Shown: piece by piece, positions 4,500 through 12,197 of the stretch
How the letters are laid out: each line of letters starts with the position of its first letter
How positions within the stretch are numbered: position 1 is the stretch's first letter
Notes under the pieces: model-generated
Database searches by the model: none
The model's input: the letters and a program-made list of their open reading frames with translations, nothing else
What the model was told of the DNA's origin: nothing
Virus record (IMG/VR): IMGVR_UViG_2541047722_000008
Coordinates: 1-14,654 of that record
Origin: a virus
Taxonomy: Duplodnaviria; Heunggongvirae; Uroviricota; Caudoviricetes
Strand: one strand, 5' to 3'
DNA length: 14,654 nucleotides
Translations under genes and position numbers: made by a program

Positions 4500-4557
4500 A
4501 AAAAGGGCGGCAGAGCAGTCACGGAGTAAAACTGATACCGCCAAACGTCACCAGAAA
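4500..4557 (-). ncRNA. dicF: DicF small RNA (ftsZ-targeting sRNA processed from the dicB operon transcript)
   Basis: Minus strand reads TTTCTGGTGACGTTTGGCGGTATCAGTTTTACTCCGTGACTGCTCTGCCGCCCTTTTT, matching the DicF sequence as I recall it, including the 3' GC stem (GGCGG/CCGCC) plus U-run. It lies between the ydfC-like and dicB-like genes as in Qin. Confidence 0.75.
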
Positions 4558-10469: not shown

Positions 10470-11021
10470 ATGACTGAATTAACAAAAGAGCAATTAATCG
10501 AAGAAGCTAAATTTAAAATAGCGATTGCGAAATGCCACCCTAATTCAGAGATGGCACGGGTAGAGGGTGAGTTATTCAAAATTGCACTGGCATCGCTGGA
10601 AGCGGAGCCTGTTGGTGAATTTTATGAGTATAAGCCGGGCGGCTGGTATCAGCATTCGGCTGGAGATAAAGCGCCAAAGTGGATACAACTCTACGCTGTG
10701 CCGCCAGCGCTCGCAGCACCTGAAGGACTGGTTAAAGCAGTGCGCTTTTATGAACAGGTAAAGCGTGAGAATCCACCAGTCGAAACAGGAGCATGGAAAG
10801 ATGCTGTTGATTGGGTACTCAAAGAGGCCTGCTGTGCTGTCATTCTGGGTAAAGCCGACAATCCATTAGCATCCAGTAACCAAGTTGGCGAATTAACAAT
10901 GTGGGTTAAACGACTGGTCAGTCAACTGAAAAAAGCTAATCCAGACTGCAAATTACCGGAGAAGGCGATGGACTACCTGAAGCGGAACGAACTGATAAGC
11001 GCGGAGGATGTTTTGCGATGA
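10470..11021 (+). CDS. Hypothetical protein (183 aa)
   Basis: Long ORF with E. coli-like codon usage, in the same orientation as its neighbours; weak SD; no motif recognised. Confidence 0.55.
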   Translation: MTELTKEQLIEEAKFKIAIAKCHPNSEMARVEGELFKIALASLEAEPVGEFYEYKPGGWYQHSAGDKAPKWIQLYAVPPALAAPEGLVKAVRFYEQVKRENPPVETGAWKDAVDWVLKEACCAVILGKADNPLASSNQVGELTMWVKRLVSQLKKANPDCKLPEKAMDYLKRNELISAEDVLR

Positions 11022-11134
11022 CCTGGCCTGAAGCATTCACAACGGTAGGAATTGCAATGGCGGTGGCGCTGGTGGTGTATTCGATTTGCCGCTGGGGGGA
11101 AGGTATTAAAAAACGCCCCGCACACAGACGTTGA
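11018..11134 (+). CDS. Small single-pass membrane peptide (38 aa), translationally coupled to the upstream gene
   Basis: ATG 11018 overlaps the upstream stop (ATGA). Peptide MTWPEAFTTVGIAMAVALVVYSICRWGEGIKKRPAHRR: hydrophobic helix plus basic tail. Below the length cut-off of the ORF track. Confidence 0.35.
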   Translation: MTWPEAFTTVGIAMAVALVVYSICRWGEGIKKRPAHRR

Positions 11135-11262: not shown

Positions 11263-11352
11263 GTGCTGGTTCTGAAATGTGCGCTGGCTATTGCGGCAGT
11301 AATGGCAATTTATTGTCTTGTTATCGTTCTTATGAATCACCTCTCTGATTGA
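11263..11352 (+). CDS. Candidate small hydrophobic peptide (29 aa)
   Basis: GTG 11263 with GGGAGG 5 nt upstream. Peptide (V/M)LVLKCALAIAAVMAIYCLVIVLMNHLSD is almost entirely hydrophobic. Ends at the hok promoter -35. Expression unproven. Confidence 0.25.
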   Translation: MLVLKCALAIAAVMAIYCLVIVLMNHLSD

Positions 11353-11359
11353 TTTTATA

Positions 11360-11388
11360 TTGGCGAGGTGACGTGAGTTAAGTAGAAT
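11360..11388 (+). promoter_or_regulatory. Candidate hok mRNA promoter
   Basis: -35 TTGGCG (11360-11365), 17-bp spacer, -10 TAGAAT (11383-11388). The downstream leader (…GCTTGAGGCTATCTGCC…GGCAGATAGAGAAAAGCCCC…) resembles the folded 5' region of R1 hok mRNA as I recall it. Confidence 0.4.
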
Positions 11389-11449
11389 TGCTGCGGGTGC
11401 TTGAGGCTATCTGCCTCGGGCATGAACACCAACGGCAGATAGAGAAAAG

Positions 11450-11520
11450 CCCCAGTTAACATTACGCGTCCTGCAAGACGCTTAACATTAATCTGAGGCT
11501 CAATCCATGCTGAACACATG
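11450..11520 (-). ncRNA. sok: Candidate Sok antisense RNA (approximate boundaries)
   Basis: Minus-strand promoter-like elements: -35 TTGCCT (11550-11545), 17-bp spacer, -10 TAACCT (11527-11522), antisense to the mok SD/start region as in hok/sok loci. A GCGTC/GACGC hairpin and U-rich stretch lie at ~11440-11480. Ends not determined. Confidence 0.35.
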
Positions 11521-11719
11521 TAGGTTAGCCTCTTACGTGCCGAAAGGCAAGGAGAAGCAGGCTATGAAGCAGCAAAAGGCGATGCTAATCGCCCTGATCG
11601 TCATCTGTTTAACCGTCATAGTGACGGCACTGGTAACGAGGAAAGACCTCTGCGAGGTACGAATCCGAACCGGCCAGACGGAGGTCGCTGTCTTCACAGC
11701 TTACGAACCTGAGGAGTAA
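11507..11719 (+). CDS. mok: Mok (modulator of killing) reading frame: N-terminal extension in frame with hok
   Basis: ATG 11507 with GAGG 8 nt upstream; MLNTCRLASYVPKGKEKQA then reads into hok, as I recall for chromosomal mokC/hokC. Confidence 0.55.
   Translation: MLNTCRLASYVPKGKEKQAMKQQKAMLIALIVICLTVIVTALVTRKDLCEVRIRTGQTEVAVFTAYEPEE
11564..11719 (+). CDS. hok: Hok/Gef-family type I toxin
   Basis: 51 aa MKQQKAMLIALIVICLTVIVTALVTRKDLCEVRIRTGQTEVAVFTAYEPEE: the Hok/Gef signature (TM helix, then TRKDLCEV.IRTGQTEVAVF.AYE). AAGGAG 9 nt upstream. Confidence 0.9.
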   Translation: MKQQKAMLIALIVICLTVIVTALVTRKDLCEVRIRTGQTEVAVFTAYEPEE

Positions 11720-11788
11720 GAGACCAGGCGGGGGAGAAATCCCTCGCCACCTCTGATGAGTCAGGCATCCTCAATGCACCCACACTTA

Positions 11789-11820
11789 ACCCGCTTCGGC
11801 GGGTTTTTGTTTTTATTTTC
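11789..11820 (+). terminator. Rho-independent terminator downstream of hok
   Basis: ACCCGC-TTCG-GCGGGT hairpin followed by TTTTTGTTTTTATTTT. Confidence 0.65.
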
Positions 11821-11939
11821 AACGCGTTTGAAGTTTTGGATGGTGCCGGAATAGAATCAAAAATACTTAAGTAGCGCGCAGGGAGAAGAGGGATGGACCC
11901 CGAACAGGGGAGTGCTATTTATCTGGAAGGATTCTGTTG

Positions 11940-12197
11940 ATGAAAATCGAAGAATTACGTGAAATTTTTAGTGAAGATGGCCTCTATACTGTGCGCGTTG
12001 AGAATGGCGCTATTGTCAGCCACTGCCGTATTAAATGTTTACAGTCTCAACAAAGGAAGAGTGGAGCTGCGTTAATTCATTTTGTGGATGGGCTTGTGAC
12101 GGATGGTTTTATTTTGCGTGCAAATGAATTTGTCACATCGTTGCCGTCTCTGAAAAAAGCTGGGATTAAGGCTGGTTTTTCTGCTTTTGAAGATTAG
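11940..12197 (+). CDS. Hypothetical small protein (85 aa), possibly Rem-like by position
   Basis: ATG 11940 (the track starts 3 nt earlier at a TTG), GGAAGGA upstream. Located between hok and the DUF968 gene, where Qin carries rem; no motif recognised. Confidence 0.45.
   Translation: MKIEELREIFSEDGLYTVRVENGAIVSHCRIKCLQSQQRKSGAALIHFVDGLVTDGFILRANEFVTSLPSLKKAGIKAGFSAFED

What the first reader, a model, noticed from the sequence alone, without database searches (positions are those of the whole stretch)
11360..11820. Complete hok/mok/sok type I toxin-antitoxin locus inside the prophage
An intact Hok toxin ORF, an in-frame Mok leader ORF, promoter-like elements on both strands arranged as in hok/sok, and a strong terminator are all present. 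K-12's Qin copy (hokD) is usually described as lacking functional regulation. A fully regulated copy in a prophage could stabilise the element or act in phage exclusion, as reported for plasmid hok/sok.
Basis: partly seen in the sequence, partly recalled or inferred. Interest (0 to 1): 0.45.

Follow-up and report, generated by a model that had tools for sequence, protein, structure and literature searches.

The report
Intact prophage hok/mok/sok toxin–antitoxin cassette
This is a complete copy of the well-known hok/mok/sok killer-gene cassette that lambda-like phages of E. coli commonly carry; it is nearly identical to the already studied hokW–sokW locus, so it is real but ordinary.

Summary
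Window 11360-11812 holds a complete hok/mok/sok type I toxin-antitoxin module. It has a hok promoter, a 5' leader that matches Rfam RF01794 over the whole model (113.5 bits), and a mok ORF in frame with a 51-aa Hok that is 100% identical to K-12 HokD. It also has an antisense Sok promoter and a 77-nt Sok RNA, a 5'/3' fold-back pairing (tac/fbi), an anti-SD hairpin, a stable 3' hairpin and a terminator. Across 70 distinct copies the predicted mRNA fold keeps 96% of its pairs and shows compensatory changes.

K-12 hokD shares only the part from 14 nt before the hok ATG onward; relBE replaces everything upstream.

The locus is not new. At least 80% of a 601-bp query around the locus is present in 2855 of 5426 complete E. 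coli genomes, annotated hokD. At least 80% of the module is present in 74 sequenced phages, annotated MokW or HokD, and relatives of its Mok-Hok ORF occur in more than 590 viral contigs. Its leader, including the Sok promoter, differs by one loop base from hokW-sokW of Stx2 phage Sp5. For that locus, toxicity, a Sok transcript on northern blots, RNase III/Hfq dependence and a role in phage release have been published.

The role in this particular prophage is untested. Interest is low.

The parts
11360..11388 (+). hok/mok promoter (TTGGCG, 17-nt spacer, TAGAAT)
   Evidence: Promoter scan gives 9 of 12 matches. The -10 TAGAAT is present in 59 of 74 distinct copies and the -35 TTGGCG in 32 of 74. 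It sits 7 nt upstream of the start of the Rfam leader match.
11395..11812 (+). Full-length mok-hok mRNA (about 418 nt). The 5' end is inferred from the Rfam model start and the promoter, the 3' end from the terminator.
   Evidence: Rfam RF01794 model position 1 lies at 11395. MFE is -172.4 kcal/mol, z = -6.0. On 70 distinct copies the fold keeps 96.4% of cells paired, against 36-43% when partners are slid. It has 33 pairs with changes on both sides, against 9.5 in shuffles.
11395..11406 (+). tac element (GGGUGCUUGAGG): the 5' end, which pairs either with fbi or with the ucb side
   Evidence: Invariant in 73 of 74 copies. Two mutually exclusive inverted-repeat partners were found: 11396-11415 with 11434-11453, and 11401-11417 with 11758-11774.
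11447..11455 (+). ucb / anti-SD (AAGCCCCAG). It pairs with the mok SD in the closed form and with tac in the open form.
   Evidence: The full-length MFE pairs GCCCCAG with CUGAGGC. The Rfam consensus structure pairs GGG.GCUU with AAGCCCC. With the tac stem enforced, the fold is within 2.7 kcal/mol of the MFE for the 5' 175 nt.
11456..11492 (+). Upper part of the long hairpin in the leader. It is the complement of the Sok stem-loop and includes an 18-nt extension absent from R1, hokC and hokB.
   Evidence: Alignment with R1-type, K-12 hokC and hokB. The Rfam alignment shows a 16-nt insertion here. Helix 4 is 94.9% paired, with 5 pairs changed on both sides.
11495..11498 (+). mok Shine-Dalgarno (GAGG)
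   Evidence: Read from the sequence, 9 nt before the ATG at 11507. CTGAGG is conserved in nearly all copies. It corresponds to the GAGG mok SD of R1 (PMC9841398).
11507..11719 (+). mok ORF (70 aa), in frame with hok
   Evidence: ORF list. The exact 70-aa protein is seen on at least 1000 contigs. K-12 mokC and hokC share a stop codon in the same way. R1 mok is out of frame with hok.
11522..11550 (-). Sok promoter (-35 TTGCCT 11550->11545, 17-nt spacer, -10 TAACCT 11527->11522)
   Evidence: Aligns with the R1 Sok promoter. Conserved in 65-66 of 74 copies, and this stretch has zero diversity among close copies. The same -10 was mutated in the sokW 'pro-less' construct.
11439..11515 (-). Sok antisense RNA (about 77 nt): single-stranded 5' tail, long hairpin, U-rich 3' end
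   Evidence: The RefSeq ends of K-12 SokC and SokB map to 11514/11515 and 11439 through the alignment. The hairpin folds at -36.2 kcal/mol, z = -5.1. The northern probe YO-592 for sokW equals window 11485-11514.
11550..11554 (+). hok Shine-Dalgarno (AGGAG)
   Evidence: Read from the sequence. AAGGAGAAGCAGGCTATG is present in 71 of 74 copies. K-12 hokD homology starts here.
11564..11719 (+). hok toxin ORF (51 aa, identical to K-12 HokD)
   Evidence: Pfam HOK_GEF 82.9 bits. The exact sequence is named HokD / HOKD_ECOLI. It is 42% identical to R1 Hok.
11727..11748 (+). G+C-rich hairpin in the 3' UTR, the expected protective 3' end of the processed (truncated) mRNA
   Evidence: Nine-pair stem in the MFE. 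Helix 15 is 98.1% paired, with 3 pairs changed on both sides. The role is inferred from R1 (PMC9841398).
11769..11781 (+). fbi element (CCUCAAUGCACCC), complementary to the 5' tac element with one bulged base
   Evidence: The full-length MFE pairs 11395-11406 with it. Helix 1 is 99.2% paired in 70 copies. The window's T versus the majority C is at the bulged position. The inverted repeat extends to 11758-11774.
11788..11812 (+). Intrinsic terminator of the hok mRNA
   Evidence: Terminator scan: 7 pairs, 5 of them G-C, then a T-run. It is the only strong plus-strand terminator between cro and Q. Homology between copies ends just after it.

Best explanation
It is an intact hok/mok/sok type I toxin-antitoxin cassette of the hokD/hokW subgroup. 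It sits in the early-right (nin) region of a Qin/DicF-type lambdoid prophage.

Mechanism (steps 1-3 are shown in the sequence; the rest is inferred from R1 hok/sok and Sp5 hokW-sokW):
1. A constitutive promoter at 11360-11388 makes a ~418-nt mRNA.
2. The mRNA's 5' end (tac) pairs with the 3' fbi element. The mok SD is locked in a hairpin with the anti-SD box (ucb). The full-length RNA is therefore neither translated nor bound by Sok.
3. A 77-nt antisense Sok RNA is made from TTGCCT-17-TAACCT on the other strand. It overlaps the mok start and the leader hairpin.
4. Slow 3' trimming back to the stable hairpin at 11727-11748 removes fbi. The 5' end refolds into the tac stem with ucb, which frees the mok SD and the Sok target.
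5. While Sok is present it pairs with the trimmed mRNA and the duplex is cut by RNase III.
6. When Sok synthesis stops, the long-lived mRNA pool is translated. Ribosomes reading mok open the hok SD, and the 51-aa Hok inserts in the inner membrane and depolarises it.

Most likely role, at moderate confidence of about 0.45: as shown for hokW-sokW, the cassette is silent in the lysogen and released after prophage induction, where it hastens growth arrest and lysis and raises phage yield. Hok is co-oriented with early-right transcription and Sok runs against it. Read-through from pR at induction could therefore also shut Sok off; this is inference only.
For: Identity:
- Rfam RF01794 matches over the full model, 113.5 bits.
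- Pfam HOK_GEF scores 82.9 bits.
- The Hok protein is the exact HokD sequence.

Anatomy: every R1-defined element has a counterpart in the alignment with R1-type, hokC and hokB loci.

RNA switch:
- The full-length MFE contains the tac/fbi and ucb/SD pairings, z = -6.0.
- The metastable and open (tac-stem) folds of the 5' domain lie within 2.7 kcal/mol of each other.
- The 5' end has two mutually exclusive complementary partners.
- Across 70 distinct copies 96.4% of cells are paired, against about 40% when partners are slid. 33 pairs show double changes, against 9.5 in shuffles.

Sok:
- The promoter is conserved in 65-66 of 74 copies.
- The RNA ends map from annotated SokC and SokB.
- The hairpin plus U-tract folds at -36.2 kcal/mol.

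Experimental proxy:
- The Sp5 hokW-sokW leader and Sok region differ from the window by one loop base over 11375-11584.
- For that locus, HokW is toxic and sokW counteracts it from its own promoter.
- sokW is seen on northern blots and vanishes after mitomycin C.
- Its action depends on RNase III and Hfq, and deleting the locus halves phage release (PMC8621323).
- HokD itself is toxic when expressed (bioRxiv 10.1101/2025.08.07.668861).

Intactness and context:
- K-12 hokD lacks everything upstream of 11550.
- The same cassette in the same neighbourhood (hok, rem, DUF968, RusA, Q) occurs in the viable phage mEp460.
Against: - No expression or toxicity data exist for this exact copy.
- By consensus the Sok -10 is weak (3 of 6) and was not picked up by the generic promoter scan.
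[quoted passage not shown] Intact sequence therefore does not guarantee killing activity.
- HokW differs from this Hok at the C terminus (VFVDYESEK versus VFTAYEPEE). It also sits elsewhere in its prophage, at the right end on the opposite strand, so its role may not transfer.
- The 3' processing step and the open fold are inferred, not observed.
Confidence: 0.88

Rival explanations
1. Same cassette, but its main role is to stabilise the prophage by post-segregational killing. Cells that excise and lose the prophage lose the short-lived Sok, keep the stable hok mRNA and die.
For: This is the established role of R1 hok/sok on plasmids (PMC9841398). All elements needed for a stable-mRNA, unstable-antisense design are present. 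hok genes are about four-fold enriched in prophages.
Against: Tested chromosomal hok/sok loci failed to give post-segregational killing. Deleting hokW-sokW had no effect on growth of the lysogen, and the reported phenotype concerns induction, not loss. Spontaneous loss of a prophage without induction is rare, so selection for this role would be weak (inference).
Confidence: 0.2
2. Same cassette, acting as an abortive-infection defence for the lysogen. A superinfecting lytic phage shuts off host transcription, Sok decays and Hok kills the cell before the invader completes its cycle.
For: R1 hok/sok excludes T4 (Pecota and Wood 1996, cited). Prophages often carry defence genes, and hok is enriched in prophages.
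Against: hok is not enriched near known defence systems. There is no test for hokD/hokW-type loci, and PADLOC was not consulted here. The exclusion effect of R1 hok/sok was measured on a multicopy plasmid (own knowledge).
Confidence: 0.2
3. Sequence-intact but functionally silent passenger. The cassette is carried along in the nin region by recombination and has no effect on the phage or the host.
For: Cassette-like boundaries: homology between copies breaks at about 11375-11383 and just after the terminator. K-12 tolerates a truncated copy. The chromosomal loci tested earlier were inactive.
Against: Strong conservation of the ORFs, both promoters and the RNA pairings, with compensatory changes across 70 distinct copies. 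It is retained in 74 sequenced phages. The near-identical hokW-sokW has a measurable phenotype.
Confidence: 0.08

Closest known systems
hokW-sokW of Stx2 prophage Sp5, E. coli O157:H7 Sakai (Takada et al. 2021, PMC8621323)
   Same: 417 nt align at 95.4% identity. The leader from the hok -10 through the first codons of hok (window 11375-11584) differs by one base, in the apical loop. That stretch includes tac, ucb, the extended hairpin, the mok start, the Sok promoter and Sok itself. The in-frame 70-aa Mok has the same N terminus, MLNTCRLASYVPKGKEKQ. The published sokW northern probe and the -10 mutagenesis primer match the window.
   Different: The Hok C terminus differs (window VFTAYEPEE, HokW VFVDYESEK), and the 3' end beyond fbi differs, with a different terminator region. 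The position differs too: Sp5 carries it at the right end of the prophage on the minus strand, whereas the window carries it between the replication genes and Q on the plus strand.
K-12 hokD (relF) in cryptic prophage Qin
   Same: Hok protein is 100% identical. The hok SD, CDS, 3' UTR with the stable hairpin, fbi and terminator, and the downstream rem-side flank are about 98% identical. The prophage type is the same, carrying DicF and dicB.
   Different: K-12 lacks the hok promoter, tac, ucb, mok and the Sok promoter and RNA. relB-relE abut the hok SD instead. The window has the complete regulatory region.
hok/sok (parB) of plasmid R1, the paradigm type I toxin-antitoxin system
   Same: Same gene order and the same set of RNA elements: tac, ucb, mok SD, Sok promoter overlapping GCCTCTTAC, hok SD CAAGGAGAAG, fbi and a terminator. 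The motifs are conserved in the alignment, and both match the same Rfam and Pfam families.
   Different: Hok is only 42% identical. R1 mok is out of frame with hok, whereas here it is in frame. The window has an 18-nt extension of the Sok/leader hairpin and a shorter tac-stem loop. The replicon is a plasmid rather than a prophage.
K-12 hokC/mokC/sokC (gef)
   Same: mok is in frame with hok and shares its stop codon. The leader is about 76% identical. The annotated SokC ends map onto the predicted Sok ends. The first ~10 nt of Sok are identical, because both share ATGCTGAACACATG.
   Different: It lies in the chromosomal backbone, not a prophage, and lacks the 18-nt hairpin extension. The K-12 copy has IS186 next to it.

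Membership tests
[quoted passage not shown] | Small hydrophobic Hok/Gef toxin of about 50 aa | tested here: met
   Pfam PF01848 HOK_GEF scores 82.9 bits against a cut-off of 22, covering profile positions 1-42 of 42. The exact sequence is named HokD.
[quoted passage not shown] | Overlapping upstream mok reading frame with its own SD, running through the hok translation start | tested here: met
   ATG at 11507 with GAGG 9 nt upstream. It is open for 70 codons through the hok SD and ATG. It is intact in nearly all of 74 copies; distant relatives have it in the +1 frame, as in R1.
[quoted passage not shown] | cis-encoded antisense Sok RNA with its own promoter, overlapping the mok translation start | tested here: met
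   The promoter TTGCCT-17-TAACCT aligns with that of R1 and is conserved. The RNA ends map from annotated SokC and SokB, and the hairpin plus U-tract folds well. Transcription of this exact copy could not be tested. A copy with the same promoter is transcribed.
[quoted passage not shown] | Long-range tac/fbi pairing of the mRNA 5' and 3' ends (fold-back inhibition) | tested here: met
   The MFE of the full-length RNA pairs 11395-11406 with 11769-11781. An inverted repeat was found at 11401-11417 and 11758-11774. The helix is 99.2% paired in 70 copies; it is invariant, so there is no covariation either way.
[quoted passage not shown] | mok SD sequestered by an upstream complementary box, with an alternative tac/ucb stem that frees it | tested here: met
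   The closed hairpin GCCCCAG/CUGAGGC appears in the MFE. The open tac stem matches the Rfam consensus structure and costs only 2.7 kcal/mol more for the 5' 175 nt.
[quoted passage not shown] | hok mRNA leader matches the curated covariance model | tested here: met
   RF01794 scores 113.5 bits against a gathering score of 59, covering model positions 1-157, on the hok-sense strand. The minus strand scores only 17.1 bits.
[quoted passage not shown] | 3' exonucleolytic processing to a translatable truncated mRNA that ends in a stable hairpin | not testable with these tools
   A conserved 9-bp G+C-rich hairpin lies at 11727-11748, in the position expected from R1. Processing itself needs RNA analysis.
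[quoted passage not shown] | Hok kills or arrests cells and Sok prevents it | not testable with these tools
   Literature only. HokD is toxic when expressed. HokW is toxic and is neutralised by sokW from a promoter identical to the window's.
hokD/hokW subgroup (lambdoid-phage cassette) | At least 90% nucleotide identity over the module, the 18-nt extension of the leader/Sok hairpin, in-frame mok, and a location in a lambdoid (pro)phage | tested here: met
   94-98% identity to dozens of prophage and phage copies. The extension is present in 68 of 70 aligned copies. mok is in frame. The prophage context is shown.

The most novel reading that the evidence does not exclude
Within this otherwise almost invariant cassette, sequence diversity is concentrated in the ~30 nt from the mok SD to mok codon 5 (11493-11522). 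This stretch encodes the single-stranded 5' tail of Sok and its target. Sok is cis-antisense, so any change here keeps a copy's own Sok-mRNA pairing and alters only its match to other copies. The discrete alleles could therefore be 'specificity alleles' that keep co-resident prophage hok/sok copies from being silenced, or released, by each other's Sok. In the two genomes available with three hokD-type copies, all three copies carried different alleles. A second untested element is a conserved but unannotated 29-aa hydrophobic ORF (11263-11352) that ends 8 nt before the hok -35 in many copies and may be a functional partner.
Probability: 0.2. Interest if true: 0.45.

Novelty: already known. Interest (0 to 1): 0.1.

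Why it matters
It matters little as a discovery. Intact hok/mok/sok cassettes in lambdoid prophages are common, annotated and experimentally characterised.

It is useful as annotation. This prophage carries the ancestral, fully regulated form of what K-12 retains only as the truncated hokD. RefSeq-style annotation marks only the 51-aa CDS and omits mok, Sok and the RNA elements.

The biological role of prophage-borne hok/sok remains open: help with lysis at induction, prophage retention or phage exclusion. This copy sits in the early-right operon upstream of Q, which makes it a convenient natural context in which to test that.

Tried and rejected
1. I looked for hokW between ECs_1196 and ECs_1199 in the Sp5 nin region, where the window's copy would be expected, and found no homology. 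It lies at the right end of Sp5 instead.

2. The generic sigma-70 scan did not report the Sok promoter. I placed it by homology and from published mutagenesis instead.

3. The unconstrained MFE of an arbitrarily truncated mRNA (11395-11766) gave the 5' metastable hairpin rather than the tac stem. I therefore compared constrained folds and did not claim that the open form is the MFE.

4. I considered a second type I-like pair: the 29-aa hydrophobic ORF plus a minus-strand promoter-like site at 11381->11352 and a minus-strand terminator at 11132->11112. I rejected it for two reasons. The -10 is TGAAAT in 12 of 19 variants that keep the site, which loses the key A. Most copies share homology only from ~11237 onward, so the terminator is not linked to the ORF.

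5. A sub-threshold Rfam isrK hit covers the hok 3' UTR, 25.7 bits against a gathering score of 50. It looks like a hairpin-plus-terminator resemblance, and I did not pursue it.

6. No search returned a copy identical to the window. The best was 97.8-97.9%, so the source strain remains unidentified.

7. A statistical test of the 'specificity allele' idea was not possible. Only two genomes with three copies were in hand, and they share two prophages by descent.
Full report
**What is in the window**

The window is the early region of a lambdoid prophage of the Qin/DicF type.
- Rfam finds DicF at 4505-4556 on the minus strand.
- The closest annotated relative, a prophage of E. coli SMS-3-5, has the same gene order: integrase, exonuclease, dicB, ydfABC, repressor, cro, YdaT, replication genes, several small genes, hokD, DUF968, RusA and Q.
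- All genes from cro (6238) to Q (13959 onward) are on the plus strand.
- The finding lies between the replication block and Q.

The toxin and its leader ORF:
- The 51-aa ORF at 11564-11719 is a Hok/Gef protein. Pfam HOK_GEF scores 82.9 bits against a cut-off of 22.
- It is letter-for-letter UniProt HOKD_ECOLI.
- A 70-aa ORF starts at ATG 11507 with GAGG 9 nt upstream. It runs in frame through the hok SD (AGGAG, 11550-11554) and the hok ATG.

The promoters and the leader:
- A promoter-like site, TTGGCG-17-TAGAAT, lies at 11360-11388.
- Seven bases after it begins a full-length match to Rfam RF01794: 11395-11569, 113.5 bits against a gathering score of 59, E = 1e-25.
- That model is called 'sok', but it matches the hok-sense strand, so it models the hok mRNA leader. 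The minus strand scores only 17.1 bits.
- The module ends at a terminator at 11788-11805, a 7-bp stem with 5 G-C pairs followed by a T-run.

The Sok promoter:
- The generic scan did not report it, because its -10 matches the consensus at only 3 of 6 positions.
- It is nevertheless unambiguous: -35 TTGCCT (11550->11545), a 17-nt spacer, -10 TAACCT (11527->11522).
- It aligns column for column with the R1 promoter TTGCGC-17-TATCCT.
- It is conserved in 65-66 of 74 distinct copies.
- It lies in a stretch with zero diversity among 60 close copies.

The Sok RNA:
- The RefSeq-annotated ends of K-12 SokC and SokB map through the alignment to window 11515/11514 (5' end) and 11439 (3' end).
- The resulting 77-nt RNA has a free 5' tail, a long hairpin and a UUUUCUCU tract. 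It folds at -36.2 kcal/mol, z = -5.1.

**The RNA switch is intact**

The full-length mRNA (11395-11813) folds at -172.4 kcal/mol, z = -6.0. In that fold:
- the 5' GGGUGCUUGAGG (tac) pairs with CCUCAAUGCACCC at 11769-11781 (fbi);
- the mok SD CUGAGGC pairs with GCCCCAG at 11449-11455 (ucb).

The 5' end has two mutually exclusive partners. These are 11396-11415 with 11434-11453 (the tac stem) and 11401-11417 with 11758-11774 (the fold-back).

For the first 175 nt I compared two folds:
- the closed form with a 5' metastable hairpin, at -60.7 kcal/mol;
- the open tac-stem form, which leaves the mok SD free, at -58.0 kcal/mol.

This is the three-state design described for R1: a metastable nascent fold, a closed full-length fold and an open truncated fold (PMC9841398).

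I mapped the full-length structure onto an alignment of 70 distinct hokD-type mRNAs (A3). The counts are:
- 96.4% of cells are standard pairs, against 36-43% when partners are slid by 1-3 columns.
- 33 pairs show changes on both sides, against 9.5 +/- 2.2 in shuffles and 10-22 when slid.
- The tac/fbi helix is invariant and 99.2% paired. This fits a segment that has to pair with three partners, but it offers no covariation.
- The window's only difference from the majority fbi (T for C) is at the bulged base.
- A conserved 9-bp G+C-rich hairpin at 11727-11748 sits where R1 has the protective 3' end of the processed mRNA.

**Comparison with K-12**

K-12 Qin has hokD directly downstream of relB-relE.

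In the pairwise alignment the window and K-12 are about 98% identical from window ~11550 onward. That point is the hok SD, 14 nt before the ATG, and the identity runs through the CDS, 3' UTR, fbi, terminator and downstream flank.

Upstream of that point there is no homology.

**How common and how well known**

- At least 80% of a 601-bp query around the locus is present in 2855 of 5426 complete E. coli genomes. Matches of any length occur in 4727, with a median of 2 and up to 11 places per genome. They are annotated hokD.
- The exact Hok and the exact 70-aa Mok each occur on at least 1000 contigs.
- A search of IMG/VR with the 70-aa Mok-Hok ORF found relatives on more than 590 viral contigs.
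- 74 sequenced phage genomes hold at least 80% of the module, annotated 'MokW protein', 'HokD toxin', 'mok: modulator of killing' and similar. They include Evi, mEp460, HannyBb, Tritos and many Stx phages.
- In mEp460 the neighbourhood is the same as here: hok, rem, DUF968, RusA, Q.
- A recent survey reports hok in 3852 prophages and 2501 phages, and a four-fold enrichment in prophages (bioRxiv 10.1101/2025.08.07.668861).

**Direct experimental proxy**

The hokW-sokW locus of Stx2 prophage Sp5 aligns with the window at 95.4% over 417 nt. From the hok -10 to the first codons of hok (11375-11584) it differs by a single base, in the apical loop of the leader/Sok hairpin.

Takada et al. (PMC8621323) reported the following for that locus:
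- HokW is toxic.
- sokW expressed from its own promoter neutralises it.
- Mutating TAGGTTA to CCGGCTC abolishes protection. That is the same -10 hexamer as in the window.
- sokW is detected by northern blot. The probe sequence equals window 11485-11514.
- sokW disappears after mitomycin C in a RecA-dependent way.
- RNase III and Hfq contribute to its action.
- Deleting the locus delays growth arrest and halves Sp5 release.

Here both are answered in favour of the interpretation: the first by proxy, the second directly.

**How it most likely works, and what is uncertain**

The mechanism given under 'best explanation' follows the R1 paradigm.
- The elements themselves are shown in the sequence.
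- 3' processing, RNase III cleavage and killing are inferred from R1 and hokW.

The biological role here is open.
- I favour the hokW-like role, a contribution to membrane damage and lysis after induction, at about 0.45. It is the only role measured for a near-identical locus.
- Prophage retention and abortive infection remain possible, at about 0.2 each. A silent passenger is unlikely, at about 0.08, given the conservation.

Caveats:
- Tested chromosomal hok loci failed in post-segregational killing assays.
- HokW differs at the C terminus and sits elsewhere in its prophage.

One inference is worth testing. Here hok is co-oriented with early-right transcription, and its terminator is the only strong plus-strand terminator between cro and Q. 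Antiterminated pR transcripts must therefore cross the cassette against the Sok promoter, which could help to switch Sok off at induction.

**Differences from R1**

- Hok is 42% identical to R1 Hok.
- mok is in frame with hok, as in K-12 mokC/hokC. In R1 and in more distant relatives it is out of frame.
- The leader/Sok hairpin carries an 18-nt extension, present in 68 of 70 aligned copies.

These are subgroup traits, not novelties of this copy.

**Verdict**

The feature is already known and interest is low. Side observations are listed separately. The most interesting are the diversity hot spot at the Sok 5' tail and a conserved, unannotated 29-aa ORF just upstream.

Noticed in passing
window 11493-11522: Among 60 close copies of the cassette, diversity peaks in the stretch from the mok SD to mok codon 5. 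That stretch is the 5' single-stranded tail of Sok and its target. The Sok promoter next to it and the hok CDS are nearly invariant. Discrete alleles exist, for example CTCAATCCATGCTGAAC here and in hokW, and CCAATTTCATGCTAGAC as the commonest. In two genomes with three copies each, all three co-resident copies differ. This may insulate copies against cross-talk, but the support is anecdotal.
   Followed up: partly
window 11263-11352 (+): An unannotated 29-aa hydrophobic ORF, VLVLKCALAIAAVMAIYCLVIVLMNHLSD. It has a GTG start 5 nt after GGGAGG and ends 8 nt before the hok -35. It is present upstream of hok in about 30 other loci at 84-90% identity. Its frame is open in 19 of 19 variants while both other frames are closed. 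Two variants have an ATG start and an in-frame 3-nt deletion. Codon differences are 87 synonymous to 73 non-synonymous. It has no Pfam or NCBIfam match and is not in the protein collection.
   Followed up: partly
window 11699-11709 (Tyr47 codon TAC at 11702-11704): GCUUACGAACC closely resembles the tRNA-Arg(ACG) anticodon loop CUACGAACC (tRNA sequence from memory). It is conserved in 63 of 74 copies. The literature says hokC, hokD and hokE mRNAs are A-to-I edited by TadA at the equivalent codon, recoding Tyr to Cys as the partner for the conserved Cys30. The site is intact here.
   Followed up: partly
window 11395-11569: Rfam RF01794 is named 'sok antitoxin', but it matches the hok-sense strand from the mRNA 5' end to the hok ATG. 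The antisense strand scores only 17.1 bits. A hit to this family marks the hok leader, not the strand of Sok.
   Followed up: yes
window ~11375-11383 and ~11808-11812: Homology between copies from different prophages breaks just upstream of the hok -10 and just after the terminator T-run. The module therefore behaves as a discrete cassette, reassorted among different flanks and even different prophage regions; in Sp5 it is at the right end on the opposite strand.
   Followed up: partly
window 11828-11857 (+): A promoter-like site, TTGAAG-18-TAGAAT, lies immediately after the hok terminator. It is conserved in K-12 downstream of hokD. It could drive the rem-like ORF (11937-12197) and the genes leading to Q independently of read-through.
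   Followed up: no
window 11018-11134 (+): A 38-aa ORF, MTWPEAFTTVGIAMAVALVVYSICRWGEGIKKRPAHRR, with a hydrophobic core. A related ORF directly precedes hokW in Sp5. The exact protein is on 62 contigs as 'hypothetical protein'. A minus-strand terminator-like hairpin overlaps its end at 11132->11112.
   Followed up: no
window 11728-11809 (+): A sub-threshold Rfam match of the hok 3' UTR and terminator to IsrK, the Gifsy-1 prophage sRNA of Salmonella: 25.7 bits against a gathering score of 50. The first hairpin GCGGGGGAGAAAUCCCUCGCC resembles the IsrK consensus GCacCcGCAAAAUCgGguGCC. It is probably a structural coincidence, and I did not examine it further.
   Followed up: partly
window 4505-4556 (-): A full-length DicF sRNA scores 76.7 bits, within a dicB-ydfABC-repressor arrangement like that of K-12 Qin. 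This identifies the prophage type.
   Followed up: partly
loci L011, L014, L042, L054, L056; phage hit H84: Near-identical hokD-type cassettes turn up in records labelled Veillonella parvula MAG, Xanthomonas pisi, Acinetobacter idrijaensis, 'Candidatus Scatousia', an uncultured Haemophilus MAG and an Actinobacillus phage. Several of these contigs are only a few hundred to a few thousand bases long. The likeliest cause is E. coli contamination or mis-binning rather than real host range.
   Followed up: no
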